Source: Candidatus Spongiisociaceae bacterium (GTDB lineage Bacteria > Actinomycetota > Acidimicrobiia > Spongiisociales > Spongiisociaceae). Taken from it: a stretch of DNA of 64,000 bases. The translations under genes were made by a program, and so were the position numbers. The stretch is from positions 256,001 through 320,000 of the forward strand of contig OZ253564.1 in the NCBI GenBank assembly GCA_965262915.1, read 5' to 3'. Below, piece after piece: positions 29,328-56,790 of the stretch. A model generated the notes under the pieces. That model did no database searches, was not told the DNA's origin, and saw only the letters and a list, made by a program, of their open reading frames with translations. Each line of letters opens with the position of its first letter. The first letter of the stretch is position 1.

Positions 29328-30317
29328 TCAGGCGCAGACCGGATGCAGGGCGTTGGCATCCCATCTGGCGTTGAATTGCCACGGCACCTCTCCGCTGACG
29401 ATGCGGTCCCGGGCTTCCCACCACAACTCGCCCCATCCTTCGTGGTCGGTGACCACCTGCTCGGGGTGGGCCTTGCTGCGGGCTACGAATCCGGGGAAGA
29501 CCGAGCGGCCGGTGGGCTGGCCGATCGGCTGGTAGCGGAGGTCGAAGCTCCAGCGGATGTCGTCGCTGCGGTTGTCCAGCGAGCCGTGCTCGGTGTGCTT
29601 GTGCAGCAACACCGCCCCTCCCGCCTTCACCTCCAAGGGAACTACCCGGTCCCAGTCGATGATGGACTCGGGAATATAGGTGGTGGCGGACGCGGCGGTT
29701 CCGGGACAGTGCGGGGTCAGGTTCTCGTGATGGCTCCCCCGTTCGACGATCAGGCACCCGTTCTCGATGGTGGCGTCGGTGACGGCGAGCCAAACGGTCA
29801 GCATGTCGGTACCGTCGGCCTCGGGGTTGATCACTCCCGCATCCTGGTGCCAGGTCGTGGCGGCGATGTTCGAGTCGGTGACCGCGGCGGGCAAGTAGCG
29901 GGCGGGGGGTTTGATGCGGGTGTGCTGCACCGGATTGGAGTAGATCTCGGGTCCGATCACCGACTCGACGATATCGAGCAGGCGCGGGATGGTGAGCAGG
30001 CGGAACACCTCCGGACCGGCGTTCATCGTATGCGAATGATCGAGTTCCTTGAGCATCGGCAGGCATATGTCGAGATGCTGGTAGATGGCGTACATGTCAT
30101 CGATCTGCTGTATCGATTCGATGTAGCGTTCCGAGAAGGTCCCGCCCTCTAACGGCCGGATCCTTCCCTCCTCGACCAGGGCGGCGGTCACCCGGTCGAT
30201 GATGGCGAGGTACTCGGCCTCGACCGCGCCCAGGTCCGCTTCGGCGAGCACGTTCTCGACGACCAGATACCCGTCTTGGTGGAACCGGTCGAGTTGCTCG
30301 GCGGTGAGGCCGGCCAT
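29328..30317 (-). CDS. PhyH-family Fe/2OG dioxygenase (tandem paralogue)
   Basis: FHQDGYLVV, WHQD, ENGCL, EHGS. Confidence 0.92.
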   Translation of the reverse strand: MAGLTAEQLDRFHQDGYLVVENVLAEADLGAVEAEYLAIIDRVTAALVEEGRIRPLEGGTFSERYIESIQQIDDMYAIYQHLDICLPMLKELDHSHTMNAGPEVFRLLTIPRLLDIVESVIGPEIYSNPVQHTRIKPPARYLPAAVTDSNIAATTWHQDAGVINPEADGTDMLTVWLAVTDATIENGCLIVERGSHHENLTPHCPGTAASATTYIPESIIDWDRVVPLEVKAGGAVLLHKHTEHGSLDNRSDDIRWSFDLRYQPIGQPTGRSVFPGFVARSKAHPEQVVTDHEGWGELWWEARDRIVSGEVPWQFNARWDANALHPVCA

Positions 30318-30454
30318 CTGTCACCTCCCTGTGTCCCGCTGGAGAGCAGGCTATACGCCGCGCGGGCGGATTGCAGGCGATATTCGGAGGTCGGGACGGT
30401 GCTTCCGGAGCGCCGATTGAAGCCACCGATCGGAGGTCTACGATACTCCCCAGG

Positions 30455-30543
30455 GGAGGGATGGCCGAGCGGACGAAGGCGTCGGTCTTGAAAACCGATG
30501 GGCCCGGTAACGGGTCTCGTGGGTTCGAATCCCACTCCCTCCG
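30455..30543 (+). tRNA. tRNA-Ser(TGA)
   Basis: GGAGGGA/TCCCTCC stem, TCGGT-CTTGAAA-ACCGA anticodon arm, T-loop. Confidence 0.97.
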
Positions 30544-31321
30544 CCTATAATTGTACATTGTGCCTGGTAAAGGGCTAGATAGTCCTTCTGGTTATCACTT
30601 TTGCTGTACTTCGGTGTTCTTGCTATGCCTTTATGGGCGATCGGGTCGAGCCGGCGCGGCGTTCGGTAGGTAGTTGCGTGCGGTAACAACGACGACACCC
30701 CGATTGGGTTGAGCAGTGCAGCTATGCGTGGGGTGCCCGGCTGGGCCGGTCGAAGTCGTGGGCGGATACTAGCGGGCTTGGCCGGTTCCCAGACGACTGC
30801 TTCTGTTGCAAGGGGGAGTTGAACGAACGCTCGGACGCAACCGGGCTCCACAAGCGGCTGGTGGTATGGCAGTGGAGTCCGTTCTTGTGGTGTACCGGGG
30901 GGGCGGCGACTCCGAAGCCGGTTACATGCGTCGGTGGGGAGGCTTTCCGGGAAGGTCTGTGCCGTAGGGGGGAGGGAGGCCTGTGGGAGAAGAGCTGGGC
31001 GTCACTCTGTCGTCGAGCGGAGCATAGTGAAGGTGGGAACCGATGCGGGGTTGTCCACTCCCGCTGTGCCGAACCGTTCCGGGAAACCCGGAACGGTTCA
31101 TGGACGCCCATTAGACACACTCATACTGAAGGTGCCCTGTTTTGAGGGGGGCTGCTGCGATGATGAGGAGTGTTCCCCTGTGACCGGGGGGCGGGTCTGA
31201 CCCGACTAGACACCGGCACTTGTGTTGCCTTGCTGGGGATCTGTCGGCCTGTCCCCCGGTCAGGGGCGGGGTTCGGCTTCGAAGCGGATGTGACGTGATA
31301 GACACCCCAGGAGCGTAAATG

Positions 31322-32542
31322 TCAAGCTGCGGCTCGGTCGAGCATGGTTCGGTGTGCCCAGGCGGTGTGTTCGTCGTAGGGGGTTCGGTGTTTGAGGCAG
31401 CCGTGGAGGATGCCGACGAGCCGGTTGGCGAGGGCTCGTAGTGCTTGGTGGTGGAGGTCGCCGGCTGCTTTTCGTTGGTCGTAGAAGGCTCGCGCTCCTG
31501 GACTGTTGTTGAGGGAACAGAATGCCCATTGGTCGAGAGCGTCGTAGAGTCGCCGGTTGCGGACCTGGCGGGCAACGACGGCGTGTTTGCGGCCTGATGC
31601 GATGGTGACGGGCGACGTGCCGGCGTAGTTTCTGCGAGACTTGGCGCTGGTGTAGCGGTGGGGGTCATCCCCGAACTCACCGAGCGCCCGGGCGCCGAGC
31701 ACGGTACCGAGTCCTGGCTGGGAGTGGTAGATGACGGCGTCCGGGTGTTCTTCAAAATGGGTCTCGAGGGTTTCTTCGAGGTCGGCGATCTGGCGGTTGG
31801 TTTCCGCGATGATCTTGACCAGCGAAGCAACGATCGTCCCGAAGGCGTCCGCGACCGGCCCGGGTGCGGTGAGGTGGGCACCTCTGAGGCCTTTCTGTAT
31901 GCGGTGGGCAACCTTGTCGAGGTTGCGTTTCCGTCCGCCTCTCTGTACCGCTGCTCTGATCTGGGGAAGTGTCAGGCGGGCGCCCCGGGTGGGGGTGGGT
32001 GCCCGACCGAGTATGGCTAGGGCGTCGCGATGGGCCAGGTCATCGAACGTTTCCAGGGCTGCAGGGTAGTACTCGCGCAGCGCGTTGCGCATCTGGTTGG
32101 TGTGGCGGGTCCGCGCCCAGATCAGGTTCTGATGGGCACGGGCCATGATCTTGATGCCGTCCGCGTCTGGGCTGTCCCCGGCTACCGGACGGTGGTTGTG
32201 ACGGTCGGTTCGTACCAGATCGGCTAACACCTTGGCGTCTCCTCGGTCTGATTTGGCTCCACCCTGGCGGTGACGGTCCCGGTAACGGGAAACTGCCATC
32301 GGGTTGATCGCATACACCTGATAACCCGCCCCGACCAGAGCACCGACCCACAGACCACGGTCGGTCTCGATCCCTACCACCACCTCGGCCGCATCCGATG
32401 CGTGTTTGGCGACCATCTCGTGCAAGCGGGCCACACCCGCCAGGCCCTCCGGTAGACGGGAGAACCCCAGGCGGGCTCCCTCCTCGTCCAGCAGATACAC
32501 ATCGTGATGTCCCTCAGCCCAGTCGTTACCCACAAAGATCAT
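31322..32542 (-). CDS. IS110 recombinase, clade B
   Basis: GNDWA, GIETD, KSDRGDA, ASG. Confidence 0.95.
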   Translation of the reverse strand: MIFVGNDWAEGHHDVYLLDEEGARLGFSRLPEGLAGVARLHEMVAKHASDAAEVVVGIETDRGLWVGALVGAGYQVYAINPMAVSRYRDRHRQGGAKSDRGDAKVLADLVRTDRHNHRPVAGDSPDADGIKIMARAHQNLIWARTRHTNQMRNALREYYPAALETFDDLAHRDALAILGRAPTPTRGARLTLPQIRAAVQRGGRKRNLDKVAHRIQKGLRGAHLTAPGPVADAFGTIVASLVKIIAETNRQIADLEETLETHFEEHPDAVIYHSQPGLGTVLGARALGEFGDDPHRYTSAKSRRNYAGTSPVTIASGRKHAVVARQVRNRRLYDALDQWAFCSLNNSPGARAFYDQRKAAGDLHHQALRALANRLVGILHGCLKHRTPYDEHTAWAHRTMLDRAAA

Positions 32543-32589
32543 CCTTCGCCCCTTCCTTGCGCGGGTCCACTCTCTGCTGAGCTGTGGAG

Positions 32590-32770
32590 AACGCCTGGCG
32601 GCGACCTAGCAGATCAGTGCTCTGTGGCACGCCACCCCCTCAGCGCTACAAGCAGCCCTCACTCACCGGCCGGGGCACGATCTATCAGCAGGAATCAACG
32701 TTCCAGGAGCCTGGAGTACTCACCGGCCAGCCAGCTCAACCACCACACCCTCCCAGAAACACCGGCAGAA
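32590..32770 (-). ncRNA. Predicted bridge RNA of B1
   Basis: Minus-strand guides AGGCTCCT (32705-32712) and TGATAG (32682-32687) match the insertion site AGGCTCCTATCA; RNA ends approximate. Confidence 0.75.
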
Positions 32771-32882
32771 GTGGTGGACCCCCATTAGGAGCCTTGTGGA
32801 AGGTCCGCACCGTGAGTGTACTGTCCGCCGCTTCTTGCCAGGAACCCGTTTTGGTAAACGGTAGTCCACGGGGAGGTGGTTC

Positions 32883-34112
32883 ATGTCGGAGGATCGGGTT
32901 GATGTTTTCGGTGGGGTTGACACCCATCGGGACACGCATGTCGCGGCGGTGGTCGATGGCGTCGGTCGGGTGGTCGGCTCCGAGCCGTTCGGGGCCGACC
33001 ACACCGGATATAGGCGGATGGCGGCGTGGATGCAAGCGAAGGGGCAGCTGGTCCGAGTCGGGGTGGAAGGAACGGGTAGCTACGGCGCGGGGCTCGCCCG
33101 TTACCTGACCGAGGCGAACATCGAGGTGGTCGAGGTCATGCGTCCCAACCGGCAACTACGCCGCCGGAAGGGCGGCAAGACCGACAGCGTCGACGCCGAG
33201 GCGGCAGCCCGGGCGGCCGCCTCAGGTGAAGCAACCGCAGTTCCCAAATCCGGTGTGGGACCGGTCGAGTGTCTCCGGATGCTGCTGGCCGCCCGCCGCT
33301 CCGCGACCAAGGCCCGCACCCAGGCCGCCAACCAGATCCACGCCCTGGTGGTCACCGCCCCAGAGCCGATAAGACACCAACTGGCGGGCAAGAAACTCAG
33401 AGCACAGGTCAAGGTGTGCGCCCGCTGGCGTCCCGGCGAAGCACAGACCACCGTCGCGTACGCGAAAAGGGCGCTGCGCCACCTGGCCCGCCGATACCAG
33501 ACCCTCGAGGTCGAGATCACACAACTCAAGCGCGAGATCAGAGGTCTATGCGCCCAGGCCAACCCGGCGCTGCTGGGCGCCCCAGGCGTCGGCCCTGACA
33601 CAGCCGCCGCGCTGCTGGTCGCTGCCGGCGACAACCACGGGCGAATGAAATCGGAAAGGTCGTTCGCAGCGTTATGCGGATCCAGCCCCGTGCAGGCATC
33701 ATCAGGCCAGACAGTGCGGCATCGTCTCAACCGGGGAGGCAACCGCAAAGCCAACAACGCTCTGTGGCGGATAGCCACCACCCGGATACACAACGATGCC
33801 CGCACCCAAGCCTATGTAGCCAAACGAGAAACCGAAGGCAAGAACCGCAAAGAGATCATCCGCTGCCTCAAGCGGCACATCGCCCGAGAAATCTACCGGC
33901 TCATCACCAACCCGCCCCCAACCCCGGACTACACCCGCCTGCGCGCCCTACGCCAACAAGGAGGCATCACCATCACCCAGGCCGCCGAAGAACTCCGAAC
34001 CCGCCCGGCCCGTATCTCAGAACTAGAACTCGGCCGCAACCACAACCACCAGCTAGCAACCCAATACCAGAGGTGGCTCCGAACCCGCCAACCGGCCCCG
34101 TCCCCGATTTGA
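32883..34112 (+). CDS. IS110 recombinase, clade A, with C-terminal HTH
   Basis: Same motifs as 18608-19837; same 409 aa length. Confidence 0.93.
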   Translation: MSEDRVDVFGGVDTHRDTHVAAVVDGVGRVVGSEPFGADHTGYRRMAAWMQAKGQLVRVGVEGTGSYGAGLARYLTEANIEVVEVMRPNRQLRRRKGGKTDSVDAEAAARAAASGEATAVPKSGVGPVECLRMLLAARRSATKARTQAANQIHALVVTAPEPIRHQLAGKKLRAQVKVCARWRPGEAQTTVAYAKRALRHLARRYQTLEVEITQLKREIRGLCAQANPALLGAPGVGPDTAAALLVAAGDNHGRMKSERSFAALCGSSPVQASSGQTVRHRLNRGGNRKANNALWRIATTRIHNDARTQAYVAKRETEGKNRKEIIRCLKRHIAREIYRLITNPPPTPDYTRLRALRQQGGITITQAAEELRTRPARISELELGRNHNHQLATQYQRWLRTRQPAPSPI

Positions 34113-34127
34113 CAACCATAGGAGCAT

Positions 34128-35608
34128 CCCCAGGCGCGTAATTGTCAAGCTGCGGCTTGGTTGATGGTGGTTCGGTGTGCCCAGGCGGTGTGTTCGTTGT
34201 GGGGGGTTTGGTGTTTGAGGCAGCCGTGGAGGATGCCTACGAGTCGGTTGGCTAGGGCTCGTAGTGCTTGGTGGTGGAGGTCGCCTGCTGCTCGTTTCTG
34301 GTCGTAGAAGGCTCGGGCTCCTGGGCTTGGGGTTAGGGAACAGAACGCCCATTGGTCCAGGGCGTTGGGGAGACGCCGCTTTTCGGACGTGGCGGGCGAC
34401 GACGGCGTGTTTGCGGCCTGACGCGATGGTGATGGGCGACGTTCCGGCGTAGTTTCTGCGAGACTTGGCGCTGGTGTAACGGTGGGGGTCGAACCTCGAA
34501 CTCACCGAGCGCCCGGGCGCCGAGCACAGTACCGAGTCCTGGCTGGGAGAGGTAGATCACGGCGTCCGGGTGCTGCTCAAAACGGGTCTGGAGGGTCGCT
34601 TCGAGTTCGGTGATCTGGCGGTTGGTTTCCACAATGATCCTCACCAATGACGCGACCGTCGCCCCGTAGGCGTCCTCGACCCGCCCAGCTGCTCTGAGAT
34701 GGGCGCCTCGTAAACCCGCTTGGATACGGCGGGCGGTCGCATCGAGGTTGCGTTGCCGTCCACCTCTTTTGAGCGCAGCCCGGATCTGGGTGATGGTCAG
34801 GCGGGCCCCTGTGCTGGGGGTGGGTGCCCGACCCAACACGGCTAGGATGTCGCGATCTGCCAGGTCCCCGAAGGTTTCAAGGGCTGCCGGATAGTATTCA
34901 CGTAGCGCGTTGCGGACCCCGTTGGTGTGGCGCACCCGAGCCCAGATCAGGTTCTGATGCGCTCGTGCTGTGATCTTGATGCCTTCCGCCCCGGGGCTGT
35001 CGCCAGCCACTGGACGATGATTGTGACGGTCGGTGCGTACCAGATCCGCTAACACCTTGGCGTCCCCGCGGTCGGACTTGGCTCCGCCCAGGCTGTGACG
35101 GTCCCGGTAACGGGACACCGCCACCGGATTGATTGCATACACCCGATAGCCGGCTGCGACCAGCGCGGCGACCCAAAGGCCGCGATCGGTTTCGATCCCT
35201 ACCACCACCTCTCCAGCATCCGATACGTGCTTGGCGACCATCTCATGCAACCTGGCTACACCTTCCAGGCCTTCTGGTAGACGCCGGGCAGCAAGTTTGG
35301 TTCCACCCTCGTCCATCAGACACACATCGTGATGTGCCTCAGCCCAGTCATCTCCCACAAAGATCATCCCTTATCCTCCCTTGCTCGGGCCTGCTCTTGC
35401 TGAGCTGTGGAGGAAACGCCTGGCGGCGACCTAGCAGATCAGTGCTCTGTGGCACGCCACCCCCTCAGCGCTACAAGCGGCCTCACCAACCGGCCGGGGT
35501 ACGATCTATGTTCAGGAATCAGCGTTCCAGGAGCATTCGGTACTCACCGGCCGGCAGCTCAACCACCACACCCTCCCAGAAACACCAGAAGAAGTGGTGG
35601 ACCCACAT
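34128..35608 (-). mobile_element. IS110 clade B, copy B2; recombinase 34145-35367 frameshifted near 34490
   Basis: Homologous to B1; left junction CCCACATTAGGAGCAT; last bases of its right end stranded at 31115-31117. Confidence 0.88.
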
Positions 35609-36086
35609 TAGGAGCATCCGGGGCGGTTCATTCATGTGAGGTGGTCTGCGTTGCCCAGGGTCGAGGCCGCCATCGCCTAGGCTCGGCCCTACCGGGACTG
35701 CGGGTTTCGGGTCCGGCATCCAGTACTACCCATGGGCGTTCGCGATGGCGCAAAACGCCAGGTCAAAGGGAAGCGTGCGCGGAATCATGCGCGCATGGGT
35801 CGAAACGCGCACGCCCCGCGGCTGCGTTTGGGTCTGCATTGACCGAGCAGGCGTTCGGCGGCCTTGTCGAATCCAAAGGGAGGTCACTTTTTGAAACAGC
35901 GGGGCGGGGGCGGCAAGGCAAATGATATCTCACCTTGAACAATACTTTGTTTAATTACGTATTTGTAATTACAAAAATGTATGGTTGCGCACAGAAGATA
36001 GTCTCGACTAAACTCTAGCCCAAAGAGATCGGAGACTTGACATATCCTGATACCTGTGCTATTAGAAGGAGAGGAGGTGCCCGCCG

Positions 36087-36329
36087 ATGTCGGAAAAATC
36101 AGAAGCACATCGTAATTACGAAGTTTTCGCCAGACTGTTGCCTGACTTGGCGGAGACCCATGCTGATAAGTGCGCTCTGTTGCACGATGGTGAGTTGGTC
36201 GAGATTTTTGATACCAACGCTGATGCACGATTTGCAGGGAGGACACGATTCGGCAGAGGTAAATTCTCGGTACAACGGATAACTGCTCGTCCGGCTGACC
36301 TGGGATGGTTCTCCCATGTATCGGCATAG
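36087..36329 (+). CDS. Small hypothetical protein (DUF5678-like) paired with an aspartyl protease
   Basis: GAGGAGG RBS; LLPDLAETHADKCALLHDGELV; overlaps next gene. Confidence 0.6.
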   Translation: MSEKSEAHRNYEVFARLLPDLAETHADKCALLHDGELVEIFDTNADARFAGRTRFGRGKFSVQRITARPADLGWFSHVSA

Positions 36330-36726
36330 CGGGACGTGGACGGAACGAGACGGCGCTATTATAGAGGTAGGACTCTTCGTCGGGGAATGGAGGGCCTTCG
36401 AGGATATACCCCGATTCCAGGCGATGATTGATACAGGGGCCGAGGAAACCTGCATCTCGAGAACAGCAGCCGCCTTGCTGGGGATACGCGACGAACCGAT
36501 AAGCATTCGTCGCGTATCCACGCCCGGCGGAGCGGCCGAACTCAATGTCTACGAAGTCAATCTGGTGTTTTTCTTAGACCCGTCATATCTCCAAATGCGC
36601 GAACAGGAAGTGGTAGAAACCAAATCTGACGCGGATCAGTGGGATGTCCTGCTAGGGCGGGATATCCTCAAGGACGCGATCTTCTTTATGGACTTTTCCG
36701 GTCGATTCACCCTTGCCTATGCCTGA
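36316..36726 (+). CDS. Retropepsin-like aspartyl protease
   Basis: AMIDTGAEETCIS and DVLLGRDIL. Confidence 0.85.
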   Translation: MYRHSGTWTERDGAIIEVGLFVGEWRAFEDIPRFQAMIDTGAEETCISRTAAALLGIRDEPISIRRVSTPGGAAELNVYEVNLVFFLDPSYLQMREQEVVETKSDADQWDVLLGRDILKDAIFFMDFSGRFTLAYA

Positions 36727-37105
36727 GTCTTCGTCTGACCCTAGGTCTAATTCGCGACGTAGTTCCCTGCGACTTGGCCCGAGCCCAGGGGAGCAACCCA
36801 GCAACAGTTGGGCGAGCGGATGGGCATCTCTCCCCAGGCAGTCCATCACTACTGGACATCCCGGTAGCACCCAGCCTGTTGCCCTGCTGGGTGGCTCTGA
36901 TGTGTGATGATCGGAACTGGTTGTTCACCTGGGGTCGGCAGCGCTCAGCCAGCCTATTACTGAGATAGCCCCCTGTGGGGTGTGATATCATCGCGGTGGT
37001 TGGATGCCAGCAGACCGCCTAGTCTTCCGATGACGATTCTGCTCACCGCCACCGACTTTCCAACCGCAGACTGTGACCGTTGATAAGCGGCTCTTCGGAA
37101 ATGAG

Positions 37106-37303
37106 ATGCTTCTATGTGTCTATCAGGTCACATCCGCTTCGAAGCCGAACCCCGCCCCGGACCGGGGGACAGGCCGACAGATCCCCAGCAAGGCAACACA
37201 CGCGCCGGTGTCTAGTCGGGTCAGACCCGCCCCCCGGTCACAGGGGACCACCCCGATCATCGCAGCAGCCCCCAAGAAAACAGGGCACCCTCCAGTATGA
37301 GTG
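37106..37303 (-). mobile_element. 198-bp transposase-less clade A IS110 derivative next to a 17-bp ISL3 IRL stub (37089-37105)
   Basis: Reverse complement of 31118-31305, then TAGAAGCAT (right-end-like). Confidence 0.8.
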
Positions 37304-37419
37304 ATTTTCGCTGGTCGCCATCAGGGACTCTGGTCGTGGGCGGCGCCCCGGTGCTGGTGTGAGCCGCAGTCGGCGCCGCGGCGGCAGTGGTGGGCGCCGC
37401 GGCCGTTCTGGCCGGTCGA

Positions 37420-40200
37420 TCACAAATGGGTGACGTTGTATTCGATTCCGAGCTGGCGTAGGCCTTCTTTGACAGTCAGGTCGAGAGTGTTTTGCTTGAT
37501 GCCCTCGGGGTGGGAGGCGTTGATGGTGAGGGTGACTGTGACGGAGGCTCCGGTGGCTACAAGCGGTGAGACGGCAACCTTGACGACGTCGCGGATCCTG
37601 TCGGCGGGGACCTGGCTTGCGGTGACGACCACGCTGGTTGGGTCACCAGTCGGGTGAGTCTCTTCATGGTCGCTGGGGTGTGTGCTCTTTGATCCGGCGT
37701 GAGTTTCTGTGGTGGTGGAGGTCTCGCTGTTGGAACTTGGCTGGTCTTTAGGTGTGTGGTCGCGGATCAATTTGGTGATGGCGGCGGCTCGAACTAGCCA
37801 GGTGCCGAGTTGGAACTGGATCTCTGAGGGGTCGATGTCGGTGTTGAAGCGACGCACGGCGTCTGCTGCGTACCAGGTGGCTCCTGATGCGAGCCCGAAG
37901 ATGCCGTTGGTGGCGCCGCGGGCGAGGCAGTCTCTGAGCACGTCGGTGCTGGCGAGTTTGGGCAGGCGAGGCAGGCGGTAGAAGTAACTGAGCAGTTTGT
38001 GCAGCTCGACGGCTTCGTTGTCGGGGCCGATCAGGCCGTAGCGTTCCGATAGCAGCGCGGCCGGCGCCAGCTTAGCGAGCGCCAGCCGTTGGCCGGTGGT
38101 GAGGTGTTCGATGACGCGCTTGGTGATCGTGTCGCTGCCTCGGGCGGGGCCGAGATCGACAAGGTTGAAGCGGATGCCGCCGTTGCCGTTGGGGCCGAGT
38201 GTTGCCAGGTGCCGGTAGGCCATGACGACGAGTCGTGGGAGGCTGGCTTCGGCGTCTCTGAGACGCGCCGCGAGCTGTTCCTTCTGTTCTTGGTTGAACC
38301 GCTTGAGCCGCGTGTGGTCGTTGGTGATGTCTCTCATGGCGGCGAGAGTGCGGGCGGTCTGACGCGCCCTGGATATGCCGACGCTGTCGGCGGCGACGAC
38401 GACTAGAGCGTTCTTGTTGACTCGGGCAGAACTGCCCCGGTTGTTGAGGATCTCTTCGGCGGACGCGCGCCCGTCTCCGTCGATGGCTAGTTCTGCGCTG
38501 AGAATGGCCAGAGTGAGGCGGGGTTCGTCCGCGACGTCCATCGTCTCCGCGACATTCGTGTTGACGCGAAACGGCTCCAGCGTGGGAGCCGCGACAGCGG
38601 TGGCTTCTCGGAACAGTTGCAGGATGCGGCCGTCACTGACGGCTCCTTCCCGCTCGACTATGACCTTGTTGAGGTTCGGTTCGGTTGTGAACCGGTAGCG
38701 GTCGCCTTCTTGGCGCATGTACCAAAGCGACCCGGCGAGCGCGTCGCGCACGTCTTCGATGATGCCCCGCGAGAGACCCGGCCGGCCGACGCCGATGAGC
38801 ATTTGAGCTGCGGAGGCTCCTAGGACCCGGTCGGAGCCGAAGCTGTGCAGGAACGCCGACGTGGCGAGCCCTACCGCAGCGCGGTGCCGAGCAATGTCGC
38901 CTCCGCGTCGGCGGTCCTCTTCGACAGCTTTGGAGTCGCCTCGGATGATGTCGGCGTTCAGCGCCGACTTGTAGGACTCCCCGGCGAAGCGGATGATCTC
39001 GGCCCGCACACCGGCGTCGTCGAGGGGCACGTCGCCGCAGCAGATGAGCGTTCCGGCGTGTTGGCGCAGCGTCAGGGCCTTCACGGTGTGAGCCAGCGTC
39101 CGGAGCGCCCCGCGGGTTCGCTGGAAACCCGACAGCGACCCCCAGCGGTTGGTCAGGATGTCGATCAGTTCGGGATGGAAGGGGTAGGAACTGACGATTC
39201 GGCTCCTGTAGGCGGGGTCGCGGTAGGACTGTGGCACAACGTCGCCCAGCTGTTCGTAGTAGGCGCCGTAGGCGTCGGCCACGGCCTGCCGCTCCGCTAG
39301 TTCACCGACTGCCTCGAACAGACGCGTGTGCAGGATCGGGAAGATGTCGTCGCCCTCGACGGGAGTGACGATGTTCTCGGTGCGTCCCACCACTTTGGAG
39401 AGCCGCTCGAACATCTCTTCTCCGGAGAGGGACGAGTAGTCCTCAAGCCGTGACGAGGTCAGGGTGGCCACGATCGCCGCACCGGGAACGTTCGCGGCGG
39501 CCGTGCAGAGTTCCTTGATGACGGTGAGGGTGGTTCCGGCCAGGTTCCCGTCGCCGACTCTCACCGACAGCGCCTTGTTGAGGTACTCGAGGGTCTCGTC
39601 GAGCAGAACGAGGCACGGCGCGGAGTTCTGTAGCAGCCGCACGATCTCAGGGGTGGAAGTCCCGAGCAGCCTCTCGTCTTGGTCGCGTATCTGGGCGTGC
39701 GCCGAGGAGCCGCCAAGCTGCCACGCCAGATGCCCGAGCAGCGAGTGAACCCGCGTTCCGTCGGGCATCTGTTCTGGAGTGACGCCGAGAGCGGAGCCGT
39801 CGAGCACAGCCACATTCGCCTTTGGGAGCGTCGCGGCCTTGAGTGCGCCGACGACTTGTCGGCCCAGCGGCGTGCGGGCCACCTGGTGCGGATCGCGGAA
39901 GAGGTGGTAGGCCGCGAGGAGAGTGTGGGTCTTGCCTCCCCCGAACTCGGTCTGCATCCGGTGAACCGCAGCAGACGAGGTGTCGCCGGCGAGGCGGTTG
40001 CCGATCTCGACGAGAGCGGCCTGCAGGGGCTCTGTGAGGTAGGTTTTGTCTGCGAAGATCTTGGGGTCGAGATAGTCCTTGGGGCCTAGGCCGCGGGCGG
40101 CGAGTCCCAGGTCGGCGGCGAATAGCGACTCGTCGAAGGAGCCGTCGCTGATGTCGGTGTGCGGCCGGGCGACTTCAAGCCATGGTCTCAGGTCGGTCAT
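37420..40200 (-). CDS. DUF499 AAA+ ATPase
   Basis: FAADL, QTEFGGGKTHTLL, LLDE, SYPFHPEL, FQRTRGALR, EPNLN. Confidence 0.92.
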   Translation of the reverse strand: MTDLRPWLEVARPHTDISDGSFDESLFAADLGLAARGLGPKDYLDPKIFADKTYLTEPLQAALVEIGNRLAGDTSSAAVHRMQTEFGGGKTHTLLAAYHLFRDPHQVARTPLGRQVVGALKAATLPKANVAVLDGSALGVTPEQMPDGTRVHSLLGHLAWQLGGSSAHAQIRDQDERLLGTSTPEIVRLLQNSAPCLVLLDETLEYLNKALSVRVGDGNLAGTTLTVIKELCTAAANVPGAAIVATLTSSRLEDYSSLSGEEMFERLSKVVGRTENIVTPVEGDDIFPILHTRLFEAVGELAERQAVADAYGAYYEQLGDVVPQSYRDPAYRSRIVSSYPFHPELIDILTNRWGSLSGFQRTRGALRTLAHTVKALTLRQHAGTLICCGDVPLDDAGVRAEIIRFAGESYKSALNADIIRGDSKAVEEDRRRGGDIARHRAAVGLATSAFLHSFGSDRVLGASAAQMLIGVGRPGLSRGIIEDVRDALAGSLWYMRQEGDRYRFTTEPNLNKVIVEREGAVSDGRILQLFREATAVAAPTLEPFRVNTNVAETMDVADEPRLTLAILSAELAIDGDGRASAEEILNNRGSSARVNKNALVVVAADSVGISRARQTARTLAAMRDITNDHTRLKRFNQEQKEQLAARLRDAEASLPRLVVMAYRHLATLGPNGNGGIRFNLVDLGPARGSDTITKRVIEHLTTGQRLALAKLAPAALLSERYGLIGPDNEAVELHKLLSYFYRLPRLPKLASTDVLRDCLARGATNGIFGLASGATWYAADAVRRFNTDIDPSEIQFQLGTWLVRAAAITKLIRDHTPKDQPSSNSETSTTTETHAGSKSTHPSDHEETHPTGDPTSVVVTASQVPADRIRDVVKVAVSPLVATGASVTVTLTINASHPEGIKQNTLDLTVKEGLRQLGIEYNVTHL

Positions 40201-55357: not shown

Positions 55358-56790
55358 GGCTCTTCGGAAATGAGTGGGGAGTAGGGGATCTGCCAGGGGG
55401 AGTTGGAATCCACCAGAAGTGAGGAGGGGTCCTCCATAATCGGGTGTTGGTAATGACATCCGAGGCAGGAGGACCCCTGTGGAAGCTGATCCTACGCGCA
55501 TGTGCGAGAAGTTGGTAGGCCTAGGTGAGGTTGATCTGGTAGGGATCAACGACCCGGGCGAGGAGGCACCGTTGGAGGTGGTGATCCGGTCCCGCAAGCC
55601 CCGGCCGTTGTGTGAGTCCTGTGGCGGGTCGGTGTGGTCGAAGGGCTATCGGACGGTTGTGTTGGTGGATTTACCGGCGTTCGGCCGGCCTGTGCGGCTG
55701 CGGTGGCGGAAACGGCGCTGGACATGTCCGAACCCCGACTGTGCGCTCAGATCGTTCATCGAACAAGACCCCAAGATTGGTCCCCAACGGGCGTTGTTGA
55801 CATCCCGAGCGGCCCGGTGGGTGACCATCCAGGTGGGTGGGCGGGGCCGTTCGGTCGACGAGGTCGCCGCAGAACTTGGTTGTGATTGGCATACGGTGAA
55901 CAAAGAGGTTGGCCGCTGGGGCGAAGCGCTGCTGGAAGCAGACACCGATCGGGTCGGGACCGTCGAAGCTGTGGGAGTGGACGAGACGTTGTTCTGGCGT
56001 CGGGGCCGTTGGCGTACCAAAGTCTGGTGCACCTCTGTCGTCGACGTTGGCGGCCACCAGCTGATCGACATAGTCCCTGGTAGAACAGCAGAAAGCGCCG
56101 CAGCCTGGTTCCGGTCACAACCCACCGAATGGTGTGAGGCTATCCGCTGGGCGGTGTTGGACATGTCCGGTTCGTATCGGAAGGCGTATGACAGGGTGCT
56201 GCCGCACGCGCTGCAGGTAGCGGACCCGTTCCACGTCATCCGCCTCGCCAACCAGCGTCTCGACGAGGTACGACGAAGAGTCCAAAACGAAACCCTCGGG
56301 CATCGAGGCCGCAAGGATGACCCGCTGTATCGGATACGGCGGCTCCTAACCGCTGCGCATGAGAGGATCAGCGACCGGGGTCAAATACGGCTGCGTGGTC
56401 TCCTCGATGCTGGTGACCCCTACGGGGAAGTGCGCACAGCCTGGCACGCGAAAGAGACGGTACGAGGCATCTACGGGATCGAGAGTCCGGTCCTTGCTCT
56501 CCGATACACCCTCCAGCTCGCAGACGACCTCCAACACGAATCCTGCCCACCCGAGATCAACAAGCTGGGTCGTACCATCGCCCGCTGGACCCCCCAGATC
56601 ACCAACTGGCACATCTCGAAGGTAACCAACGGACCCACCGAAGCCCTCAACAACCTCATCAAACGGATCAAACGAGCAGCGTTCGGGTTCCGCAACTTCG
56701 CGAACTACCGAATCCGCGCCCTTCTCTACGCGGGGAAACCCAACTGGGACCTACTCCCATCGGTCACTCCCCACTGAAATCCGATGAGCC
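55358..56790 (+). mobile_element. Intact ISL3 with 8-bp TSD AATAAACT
   Basis: TSD at 55350-55357 and 56791-56798; near-identical to the 16951 copy. Confidence 0.96.
55479..56777 (+). CDS. ISL3-family transposase
   Basis: Three substitutions relative to 17072-18370 in the supplied translations. Confidence 0.95.
   Translation: MEADPTRMCEKLVGLGEVDLVGINDPGEEAPLEVVIRSRKPRPLCESCGGSVWSKGYRTVVLVDLPAFGRPVRLRWRKRRWTCPNPDCALRSFIEQDPKIGPQRALLTSRAARWVTIQVGGRGRSVDEVAAELGCDWHTVNKEVGRWGEALLEADTDRVGTVEAVGVDETLFWRRGRWRTKVWCTSVVDVGGHQLIDIVPGRTAESAAAWFRSQPTEWCEAIRWAVLDMSGSYRKAYDRVLPHALQVADPFHVIRLANQRLDEVRRRVQNETLGHRGRKDDPLYRIRRLLTAAHERISDRGQIRLRGLLDAGDPYGEVRTAWHAKETVRGIYGIESPVLALRYTLQLADDLQHESCPPEINKLGRTIARWTPQITNWHISKVTNGPTEALNNLIKRIKRAAFGFRNFANYRIRALLYAGKPNWDLLPSVTPH

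What the first reader, a model, noticed from the sequence alone, without database searches (positions are those of the whole stretch)
31101..35630. Two IS110 clades whose bridge RNAs are programmed against each other
Seen: A2 sits in TAGACA|CCCCAG, the right end of clade B, and its target loop carries TAGACACC (31207-31214) and CTGGGG (31233-31238, complement of CCCCAG). B1 sits in AGGCTC-CT-ATCA (minus strand), and its loop carries AGGCTCCT (32705-32712) and TGATAG (32682-32687). B2 abuts ATGCTCCT, the clade A right end, and its loop carries ATGCTCCT (35529-35536) and ACATAG (35506-35511); B2's other flank fits its guide less well. B1 and B2 share a scaffold but differ at the guide positions in the way their targets differ. 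Established: IS110 (IS621) bridge RNAs use target- and donor-binding loops for specificity. Inference: each clade has been reprogrammed to insert into cis-essential parts of the other, an RNA-guided IS-versus-IS conflict or mutual safe-harbour use. I do not know of a description of this reciprocal case.
Basis: partly seen in the sequence, partly recalled or inferred. Interest (0 to 1): 0.93.

Follow-up and report, generated by a model that had tools for sequence, protein, structure and literature searches.

The report
Two IS110 families inserting into each other
Three RNA-guided insertion sequences from two families sit nested inside one another, and each one's guide loop reads the exact spot of the other family where it landed, so these jumping genes use each other's working parts as landing sites.

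Summary
Window 31113-35618 holds B2 (minus strand, decayed). A2 (plus strand) is inserted 5 nt from B2's right terminus. B1 (minus strand, intact) is inserted into A2 between its target-binding loop and its transposase gene.

Both families are multi-copy in this 5.05 Mb genome: 31 A transposase-length matches and 11 full B copies. The variable loop positions track the flanks. B: 9.6 of 11 non-core positions match cognate flanks against 5.7 for non-cognate; 0 of 20,000 shuffles reach the observed value. A: only the identity permutation of 40,320 does.

B1's site is the DNA encoding A's donor-binding loop, which mirrors A's right end. B2-type elements sit in A right ends. Both B programmes recur in five congeneric genomes. 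The A2-type programme recurs once in this genome and once in one congener.

Three qualifications apply. Only sublineages are involved, since most programmes of both families aim elsewhere. Only A2's left guide is derived; its right guide is ancestral. Conflict versus safe-harbour use is unresolved.

This is a new variant of a known kind.

The parts
31113..31117 (-). B2 right-end stub: the last 5 nt of B2, cut off from its body by A2
   Evidence: Identical to the terminal 5 nt of every family-B right end. The body resumes at 34129.
31118..34128 (+). A2, an IS110-family element of family A. It is 3,010 nt with B1 inside and about 1,521 nt without it. One junction C is shared with the target.
   Evidence: Ends set by comparison with 31 transposase-length A matches and 33 A left ends.
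31119..31299 (+). [quoted passage not shown]
   Evidence: 93% and 89% identical to two solo left ends in this genome. The consensus fold of intact relatives gives a stem / internal loop / hairpin module.
31202..31214 (+). A2 left target guide segment (13-nt loop side)
   Evidence: Reads as the top strand of the B right-end stub plus the next bases of B, 10 of 12 in register. The strand logic is that of IS621.
31232..31238 (+). A2 right target guide (7 nt)
   Evidence: Its reverse complement matches the bases after A2's right end at 6 of 7. The same 7 nt are present in 9 left ends of the subclade.
31300..32786 (-). B1, a complete family-B element (1,487 nt), with its CT core repeated at 32787-32788
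   Evidence: 99.1% and 98.5% identical to genome copies at 3638542 and 4420442. Ends from 11 aligned copies.
31322..32542 (-). B1 transposase, 406 aa, intact
   Evidence: Pfam DEDD_Tnp_IS110 at 4.4e-35 and Transposase_20 at 2.5e-09.
32703..32714 (-). B1 left target guide segment
   Evidence: Unpaired 5' side of the first internal loop in the consensus fold. Matches the left flank at 6 of 6 non-core positions.
32682..32690 (-). B1 right target guide segment
   Evidence: 3' side of the same loop. Its reverse complement matches core plus right flank at 4 of 5 non-core positions.
32787..32882 (+). Rest of A2's donor-binding-loop module (right donor guide at about 32810-32818) and the transposase leader
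   Evidence: Collinear with uninterrupted A copies. Carries the reverse complement of the A left-end start.
32883..34112 (+). A2 transposase, 409 aa, intact
   Evidence: Pfam DEDD_Tnp_IS110 at 3.4e-26 and Transposase_20 at 3.6e-19, plus a weak C-terminal HTH below the curated cut-off.
34109..34128 (+). A2 right end: a consensus -35 hexamer (34109-34114) through to the terminus
   Evidence: Conserved in the family-A right ends listed. Coordinates.
34129..35609 (-). B2 body, a family-B element with a decayed transposase gene
   Evidence: 82.6-85.9% identical to the other full copies. The longest ORF, 34333-35367, is 344 aa and lacks the Transposase_20 domain.
35527..35538 (-). B2 left target guide segment
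   Evidence: Matches the left flank, the last bases of an A right end, at 6 of 6 non-core positions by my reading. Coordinates.
35506..35514 (-). B2 right target guide segment
   Evidence: Predicts the interior of the right end of the A subclade that includes genome copy 962960. The same guide has a fully fitting flank in G002 (L028).
35610..35618 (+). Last 9 nt of an A-family right end. The first two are B2's core; the rest of that A copy is gone.
   Evidence: Identical to the terminus of the family-A right ends listed. Coordinates.
35619..35630 (+). Right half of the target of that vanished A copy
   Evidence: The same 12 nt follow the right end of genome copy 962960, whose right guide fits them.
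37122..37303 (-). A3, a solo A left end with the same target loop as A2
   Evidence: 93% identical to the A2 left end with identical guide segments. It is followed by a 6-nt B right-end stub at 37116-37121.

Best explanation
The region is a three-deep nest of IS110-family insertion sequences from two families. Each element carries a bridge RNA gene in its left end, upstream of a DEDD transposase gene.

In each RNA, the first internal loop holds a left guide that reads like the top strand of the left flank. It also holds a right guide that is the reverse complement of the right flank.

The inferred order of events:
1. A B sublineage whose loop reads the last dozen bases of A-family right ends inserted B2 into an A copy. 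Most of that A copy was later lost.
2. An A sublineage whose loop reads the B right end inserted A2 5 nt from B2's terminus.
3. A B sublineage whose loop reads the DNA of A's donor-binding loop inserted B1 there. That segment resembles A's right end because it is the guide for it.

Each hit separates the host element's -35 box and inner donor-recognition bases from its terminus, or splits its bridge RNA. The hit copy is therefore probably immobilised in cis.

My preferred evolutionary reading is this. Ends of other mobile elements are abundant, harmless to the cell, sequence-constrained and travel between genomes, so guide programmes that drift onto them persist (safe harbour and hitch-hiking). 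Mutual inactivation is then a by-product.

Shown here: the anatomy, the guide/flank covariation, and the recurrence in this genome and in congeners. Inferred: transcription and folding of the RNAs, RNA-guided recombination by these particular proteins, loss of mobility of the hit copies, and the order of events.
For: Family membership: Pfam DEDD_Tnp_IS110 and Transposase_20 for the A2 and B1 proteins.

Copy numbers and ends.

Guide logic: left guide in sense and right guide in antisense, with the core included in both. IS621 is described this way in the passages I read of PMC11208160 section 7.

Covariation:
- B family: 20 insertions from six genomes score 9.6 of 11 for cognate flanks against 5.7 for 356 non-cognate pairs; 0 of 20,000 permutations reach the observed value.
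- The right guide follows single-base differences between flanks in the heptamer-repeat class.
- A family: 28 of 30 copies with both ends match the right flank at 5 or more of 7; the programme-level permutation gives 1 of 40,320.
- 16 exact empty sites of the commonest A programme, plus one one-base-shorter variant, fix the insertion point.

Structure: two stem / internal-loop modules, with the variable positions unpaired.

B into A:
- B1 and the copies at 3638542 and 4420442 lie at the same site in two A subclades.
- 10 of 13 left ends of the A2 subclade, across six genomes, carry a B right end, a B stub or a B remnant at that site.
- L002 in G006 shows the whole arrangement.
- B2, the fragment at 4018484 and L028 in G002 sit in A right ends.

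A into B: A2 in B2 with both junctions; L066 in G007, where the inserted copy carries an A2-type left guide; a remnant at genome 341689.

Donor-loop assignment: the segment cut by B1 repeats 8 nt of the A right end. The one position that varies in the right end varies with it in copies 642094 and 2009260.

Age: B1 is 98.5-99.1% identical to two other copies, whereas B2 is at most 85.9% identical to any other and has a broken frame.
Against: - Only one A-into-B insertion shows both junctions. L066 and the 341689 remnant show the left junction only, and L068 is doubtful.
- The A2-type loop was found in 2 of the 29 family genomes searched.
- A2's right guide is ancestral to its subclade, so half of the match to B was there beforehand.
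- A3 has the A2 loop but lies in a flank that fits another programme, 5-6 of 12-13.
- Copies at 3665077 and 4462393 are also discordant. So insertion can be guided by an RNA other than the element's own, or flanks have been reshuffled.
- B2's right-end flank fits 1 of 5 and is unique sequence.
- Two 3-nt blocks in the presumed donor loop of B1, B2 and one other copy depart from the family consensus and do not fit their own left end. These copies may not be able to move themselves.
- Many target sites are empty: 14 for the B1 type, 32 for the B2 type and 18 intact B right ends. Occupancy is low.
- There is no RNA or activity evidence.
- Short-read contigs bridge only 2 of the 5 junctions by the tool's 31-letter rule.
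Confidence: 0.82

Rival explanations
1. Arms race. Selection favours guide programmes because they disable a competing IS family. They aim at sequences the competitor cannot change without breaking its own guide-donor match: its right end and the loop that reads it.
For: All three target sites lie in cis-essential segments: two right ends, between the -35 box and the terminus, and one donor-binding loop. The hits are reciprocal and stacked in one locus. B lineages with these programmes persist across species.
Against: Most target sites are unoccupied. Other programmes of both families aim at an ISL3 end, heptamer repeats and hairpin-like repeats, which fits a general preference for repeats. 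A benefit to the attacker was not tested, and no test here separates this reading from safe-harbour use.
Confidence: 0.25
2. Functional composite. The A2-subclade left end plus a B1-type element is an inherited unit. It still moves, with the two halves of A's bridge RNA made separately.
For: 10 of 13 left ends of this subclade in six genomes carry B or B remains at the same site. G005 and G006 share the same flank, so at least that case looks inherited. IS621 bridge RNA works in trans (passage of PMC11208160 section 8).
Against: The three B1-type copies in this genome are 98.5-99.1% alike while their A hosts are about 72% alike, so there were fresh insertions into different hosts. B1 cuts inside the left donor guide rather than between the two modules.
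Confidence: 0.06
3. Chance or non-RNA causes. The nesting reflects a recombination hot spot or homologous exchange among repeats, and the loop/flank matches are coincidental.
For: Some junctions are clearly secondary rearrangements: B2's right flank, the A3 scar, and L021 in G001 with one flank from an A right end and the other from an A donor loop.
Against: The permutation results, single-base covariation, fixed orientation in every instance, and exact empty sites.
Confidence: 0.03
4. Assembly artefact. The order of the 1.5 kb repeats in the nest was mis-joined.
For: B1 has two near-identical copies elsewhere. Three of the five junctions are not bridged by listed short-read contigs.
Against: The genome is one contig. 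Contigs from runs X15 and X16, one sample that may be the source of the assembly, cross the flank/stub/A2 junction and the B2/flank junction without differences. The same junction types occur in other genomes.
Confidence: 0.03

Closest known systems
IS621 and other IS110-family elements with bridge RNAs (Durrant et al. 2024, PMC11208160; I read passages of sections 4-8 and figure legends)
   Same: A DEDD transposase and a left-end non-coding RNA with two internal loops. [quoted passage not shown] The target is often a repeat, and loop and flank covary.
   Different: Here the targets are parts of another IS110 family. Family A shares only a single C between target and ends rather than a clear dinucleotide. 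The register of its left guide differs by one base between subclades.
[quoted passage not shown] I saw these only as reference-list entries; the details are recalled.
   Same: A DEDD-transposase IS that specifically lands in the cis-acting end of another mobile element. The commonest A programme here does the same with an ISL3-family end.
   Different: Those cases run one way and the host is a different kind of element. Here two related RNA-guided families hit each other, and one target is the DNA of a guide loop.
Expanded IS110 loci and half-match recombination (preprints 10.64898/2026.08.14.744561, abstract and section 8 plus search passages; 10.64898/2026.08.31.748434, abstract and outline only)
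   Same: Repeated insertion into already occupied IS110 loci, with no target immunity. Boundaries inside loci resemble one donor half. This could explain B2's odd right flank and how A2's ancestral right guide first met the B end.
   Different: Those papers describe growth of a locus by its own recombination system. In the parts I read they do not describe a second family whose target loop is set on the first, or the reverse.
Natural reprogramming between close relatives, ISEc11 versus ISXne4 (Siddiquee et al. 2024, PMC11187229; passage of section 10)
   Same: Near-identical scaffolds with changed guide segments and correspondingly changed targets.
   Different: Here about 9 (family A) and at least 5 (family B) programmes coexist in one genus, several of them in one genome.

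Membership tests
IS110 family (IS110 group, bridge-RNA type) | Transposase with an N-terminal DEDD (RuvC-like) domain and a C-terminal Transposase_20 domain | tested here: met
   both domains are above the curated cut-offs in A2 (409 aa) and B1 (406 aa). B2's 344-aa ORF has only the first domain.
IS110 family (IS110 group, bridge-RNA type) | [quoted passage not shown] | tested here: met
   The A left end runs about 285 nt to the start codon and the B left end about 245 nt. The guide loops lie there.
IS110 family (IS110 group, bridge-RNA type) | An RNA with two stem / internal-loop modules: a target-binding loop followed by a donor-binding loop | tested here: inconclusive
   B: the consensus fold of 9 sequences gives both modules, but only 3 of 64 pairs show changes on both sides. 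A: the first module is predicted. The second was not recovered by the fold, and rests on sequence mirroring of the ends and one covarying position. No Rfam family matched.
IS110 family (IS110 group, bridge-RNA type) | Left guide equals the top strand of the left flank; right guide equals the reverse complement of the right flank; both covary with the flanks | tested here: met
   The rule is as stated in PMC11208160 section 7.
IS110 family (IS110 group, bridge-RNA type) | A core dinucleotide shared by target and donor and present at both junctions | tested here: inconclusive
   B: CT is at both junctions of all 11 copies, so the feature is met. A: occupied and empty sites share only one C. A dinucleotide core would need a mismatched first base.
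IS110 family (IS110 group, bridge-RNA type) | The right end carries a -35 box, so that joining the ends in a circle would make a promoter | tested here: inconclusive
   By reading, both families have a consensus -35 hexamer placed so that a 17-nt spacer ends 3 nt before (B) or 3 nt after (A) the junction, followed by a -10-like hexamer. No circle was observed and no joined sequence was scanned.
IS110 family (IS110 group, bridge-RNA type) | Scarless excision to a circular intermediate, and RNA-dependent recombination | not testable with these tools
   Needs circle PCR, long reads or assays.

The most novel reading that the evidence does not exclude
Two RNA-guided transposon families are in a guide-encoded arms race. 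Lineages gain by retargeting their bridge RNA onto the rival's right end, and onto the DNA of the rival's donor-binding loop. The rival cannot mutate this pair of sequences independently without losing mobility. That makes them an evolutionarily stable weak point, and it explains why B could hop between the two sites with two or three guide changes.
Probability: 0.25. Interest if true: 0.85.

Novelty: new variant of a known kind. Interest (0 to 1): 0.64.

Why it matters
Bridge-RNA recombinases are being developed as genome-writing tools, and little is known about how their guides are retargeted in nature.

This genus offers a natural series. About 14 programmes sit on two scaffolds. One case shows only one of the two guides changed. 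Two sister targets are related because a guide loop mirrors the end it recognises. Some copies have flanks that fit another copy's RNA, which points to guiding in trans.

It also shows that RNA-guided transposons can specialise on one another. That is a form of transposon-on-transposon ecology not reported in the papers found by my four literature searches.

Tried and rejected
- Rfam: the scan of 30000-38000 at E up to 1 found no bridge-RNA family. It gave only tRNA-Ser, two Ms_AS-4 matches and sub-threshold noise.
- Family A fold: my consensus fold did not recover the donor-loop module, so I did not claim it as folded.
- Pattern hits: L062, L063 and L065 lie in unrelated sequence and were dropped. 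L061 is an A right end in a non-B flank and was used only to show the ancestral target. L068 has four extra bases between the repeat and the stub, so I count it as doubtful.
- Reads: Logan contigs of X15, X16, X19 and X1 are short. They bridge two junctions. The remaining two junctions were not among the listed pieces. Parts without cover say nothing.
- Habitat labels of low-share runs were not used.
- B2's right flank: I considered that it was made by a half-match deletion against a sequence resembling a B left end (12 of the first 13 nt by my reading). I could not test this.
- A3 scar: I considered that the scar beside A3 is a hybrid empty site left after excision. This is untested.
- Transposase tree: the tree of B transposase ORFs used 23 rows. 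These were all full-length G000 copies plus 12 loci chosen because they had been fetched, not an exhaustive set. It groups the B1-type copies of G000 with that of G006 at only 84/83 and leaves the window's B2 unresolved, so I make no claim about the order of retargeting.
- Unpublished genome: G039 is flagged unpublished.


Full report
ANATOMY. The window is G000:C1:256001-320000 of a single-contig 5.05 Mb genome.

Downstream of a tRNA-Ser gene (30455-30545) and 570 nt of sequence unique in the genome lies a nest of three IS110-family elements. Reading the plus strand:
- 31113-31117: the last 5 nt of B2.
- 31118/31119 onward: A2. Its left end runs to 31299.
- 31300-32786: B1, inverted, with its CT core repeated at 32787-32788.
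- 32787 onward: A2 again, with its transposase gene at 32883-34112. A2 ends at 34127, followed by a C at 34128 that is shared with the target.
- 34129-35609: B2's body, inverted, with its core at 35610-35611.
- 35612-35618: the last 7 nt of an A-family right end.
- 35619-35630: 12 nt that also follow the right end of the A copy at genome 962960.

Both intact proteins have the DEDD_Tnp_IS110 and Transposase_20 domains. B2's longest ORF is 344 aa and has only the first domain.

TWO MULTI-COPY FAMILIES. BLAST of the parts against the genome gives 31 transposase-length matches for family A. For family B it gives 11 full copies plus fragments.

Aligned copies fix the ends. All 11 B copies begin and end identically and have CT on both sides. 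The family-A right ends listed share the same terminal bases followed by C. The exceptions there are rows whose alignment stopped short of the end, so that the projected end point was off. A left ends begin with a conserved heptamer preceded by C.

Sixteen exact empty sites for the commonest A programme, plus one one-base-shorter variant, show that target and element share just that one C.

GUIDE LOGIC AND COVARIATION. In both families the left end contains a conserved scaffold with two short variable segments.

The first segment reads like the top strand of the left flank up to and including the core. The second is the reverse complement of the core plus the right flank. [quoted passage not shown]

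Consensus folds place the variable segments on the two sides of an internal loop closed by conserved stems. A second such module follows (for B, 9 sequences; for the first module of A, 9 sequences).

For B, I compared 20 insertions from G000 and five congeners. Cognate guide and flank agree at 9.6 of 11 non-core positions on average, against 5.7 for 356 non-cognate pairs. None of 20,000 permutations of 19 distinct combinations reaches the observed 182 of 209. Within the class that sits in heptamer repeats, the right guide follows single-base differences between flanks.

For A, 28 of 30 copies with both ends match the right flank at 5 or more of 7. Among 8 programmes, only the identity permutation of 40,320 reaches the observed 104 of 112.

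B AIMED AT A. Two B programmes are set on family A.

The B1 type (B1 and the copies at 3638542 and 4420442, 98.5-99.1% alike) always lies at one site between A's target loop and its transposase gene, in antisense orientation. Its hosts belong to two A subclades whose transposase regions are about 72% alike.

That site is the left side of A's second loop module. It repeats 8 nt of A's right end. The one position that varies among right ends varies with it in copies 642094 and 2009260. The opposite side of the module carries the reverse complement of A's left-end start. I therefore read it as the donor-binding loop. B1 cuts inside its left donor guide.

The B2 type (B2 and a fragment at 4018484) abuts the last bases of A right ends, each still followed by the target half that fits that A subclade.

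The two B targets are thus sister sequences, because A's guide mirrors A's end. The two B programmes differ at only a few loop positions.

In congeners:
- L002 (G006) is a B1-type copy in the donor loop of an A element that has yet another target loop.
- 10 of 13 left ends of the A2 subclade, in six genomes, carry a B right end, a 6-nt B stub or a B left-end remnant at that site. Three are intact.
- G005 and G006 share the flank, so that case may be inherited.
- L028 (G002) is a B2-type copy whose two flanks both fit (6 of 6 and 5 of 5).
- L021 (G001) has an A right end on one side and an A donor-loop half on the other. This is what recombination between two B copies in one A element would leave.
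- A tree of B transposase ORFs groups the G000 B1-type copies with L002 at 84/83 and L028 with L021 at 96/99. The window's B2 is unresolved.

A AIMED AT B. A2's left guide segment matches the B right-end stub and the following bases (10 of 12 in register). Its right guide matches the bases after A2's right end at 6 of 7.

The same loop is in A3, a solo left end at 37122-37303. In G007, a closely similar left guide (one base different) is in a left end inserted directly after a 5-nt B stub that itself lies in another A element's donor loop (L066). That contig ends before its right guide.

At genome 341689, a B stub in an A donor loop is followed by a 12-of-13 match to an A left-end start and then by unrelated sequence.

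The pattern search found this loop in 2 of 29 genomes of the family.

The right guide is not new. Nine left ends of the subclade, in G000, G001, G002 and G007, have the same 7 nt, with left guides that fit a different repeated flank. An A right end in G007 is followed by a matching non-B sequence (L061). So the retargeting onto B changed the left guide only. A pre-existing right-half match may have been the entry point, which would fit the half-match activity reported for IS621 (abstract of 10.64898/2026.08.31.748434).

CONSEQUENCES AND ORDER. By reading, both families carry a consensus -35 hexamer in the right end. It is spaced so that joining the ends would complete a promoter, as described for IS110 circles (PMC11208160, passage).

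A2 lies within that spacer of B2, 5 nt from the end. B2-type copies lie within the spacer of A, 9 nt from the end. B1 splits A2's RNA gene. Each hit should therefore disable the host copy in cis. This is inference.

B2 is the most diverged copy and is broken. A2 is intact. B1 is nearly identical to two other copies. The order was therefore B2, then A2, then B1.

WHAT DOES NOT FIT.
- A3 lies in a flank that fits another programme. Copies at 3665077 and 4462393 are likewise discordant. Guiding by another copy's RNA, or later exchange, must occur.
- B2's right flank is unique sequence that resembles a B left end rather than an A right end.
- B1, B2 and one other copy carry two 3-nt changes in the presumed donor loop that do not fit their own left end. 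A fourth copy has one of the two.
- The left guide of the commonest A programme is in a register one base off from the others.

WIDER PICTURE. Most programmes aim at other repeats:
- The commonest A programme (17 copies) sits in the end of an ISL3-family element, whose 432-aa transposase is at window 55479-56777.
- Seven B copies sit in heptamer repeats.
- Other A programmes sit in hairpin-like or repeated motifs.

Many anti-A and anti-B target sites are empty. This favours a general drift of guides onto abundant, harmless, conserved repeats, with mutual hits as a special case. It does not exclude selection for disabling a rival.

ASSEMBLY. Contigs of runs X15 and X16 (one sample, possibly the source of the assembly) cross the flank/stub/A2 junction and the B2/flank junction without differences. 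The other three junctions were not bridged by listed pieces. Recurrence of the junction types in other genomes argues against an artefact.

LITERATURE. Four searches and reading of the items named under Closest known systems found four kinds of precedent:
- RNA-guided targeting and natural reprogramming.
- IS1111-family elements that land in Tn21-type inverted repeats and attC sites (reference lists only).
- Repeated insertion into occupied IS110 loci.
- Half-match recombination.

They did not turn up reciprocal targeting between two IS110 families, or a guide-loop gene as target.

VERDICT. It is a new variant of a known kind, of moderate to high interest.

Noticed in passing
window 18408 region (occupied) and window 56773 (empty site); ISL3-type transposase at window 55479-56777: The commonest A programme (17 copies) is inserted at the very end of an ISL3-family element. 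16 exact empty ends, plus one one-base-shorter variant, exist in the genome. This is another IS-in-IS specialisation, of the IS4321/Tn21 kind.
   Followed up: partly
genome 371390-372887, 737777-739274, 719800-721300, 1359833-1361329, 2093365-2094861, 1850586-1852083, 1873944-1875450: Seven B copies sit in tandem heptamer repeats. The right guide differs by single bases exactly as the repeat unit at the insertion point differs. Some arrays lie next to a shared conserved sequence, so they may belong to yet another repeated element.
   Followed up: partly
window 37105-37121 (minus strand), next to A3: After A3's donor-loop half comes a 6-nt B right-end stub, joined directly to an 11-nt near-copy of an A right end. 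It looks like a hybrid empty site, left when a composite between two A copies was excised or deleted.
   Followed up: no
genome 4427098 (minus strand): An isolated fragment of an A-type target loop. Its two guides fit the interior of the A-family right end itself, which suggests an extinct A-against-A programme. Its right guide also fits the 11-nt piece beside A3.
   Followed up: no
window 32590-32650 and 35415-35475 (minus strand); genome copy at 719800-721300: Two 3-nt blocks in the presumed donor-binding loop of B1, B2 and one heptamer-class copy differ together from all other copies, including those of congeners. The copy at 3638542 has only one of the two blocks. B1 otherwise differs by about 1% from copies that carry the consensus blocks.
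   Followed up: no
genome 3665077, 4462393; window 37304-37316: Three A left ends lie in flanks that fit another programme's guides better than their own. This suggests insertion guided in trans by another copy's RNA, or exchange between copies.
   Followed up: partly
window 31079-31100: A hairpin-like sequence just left of the nest resembles an empty target of the A programme of genome copy 962960. The right half of that same kind of target follows the A remnant at 35619-35630. The locus may have held that A copy before a deletion.
   Followed up: no
L021 (G001:C180): A B copy flanked on one side by an A right end and on the other by an A donor-loop half. This is the product expected if two B copies in one A element recombined and deleted A's interior.
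   Followed up: partly
window 31640-31721 and 34464-34546 (plus strand): Rfam Ms_AS-4 (Actinobacteria sRNA) matches at 83.7 and 72.2 bits, above the gathering score. They lie antisense inside the B1 and B2 transposase genes, so this Rfam family seems to describe a conserved piece of an IS110-type gene.
   Followed up: no
window 33935-34050 (A2 transposase residues 352-388): A weak helix-turn-helix match (HTH_3, E = 1e-4, just below the curated cut-off) in a C-terminal extension of the A2 transposase.
   Followed up: no
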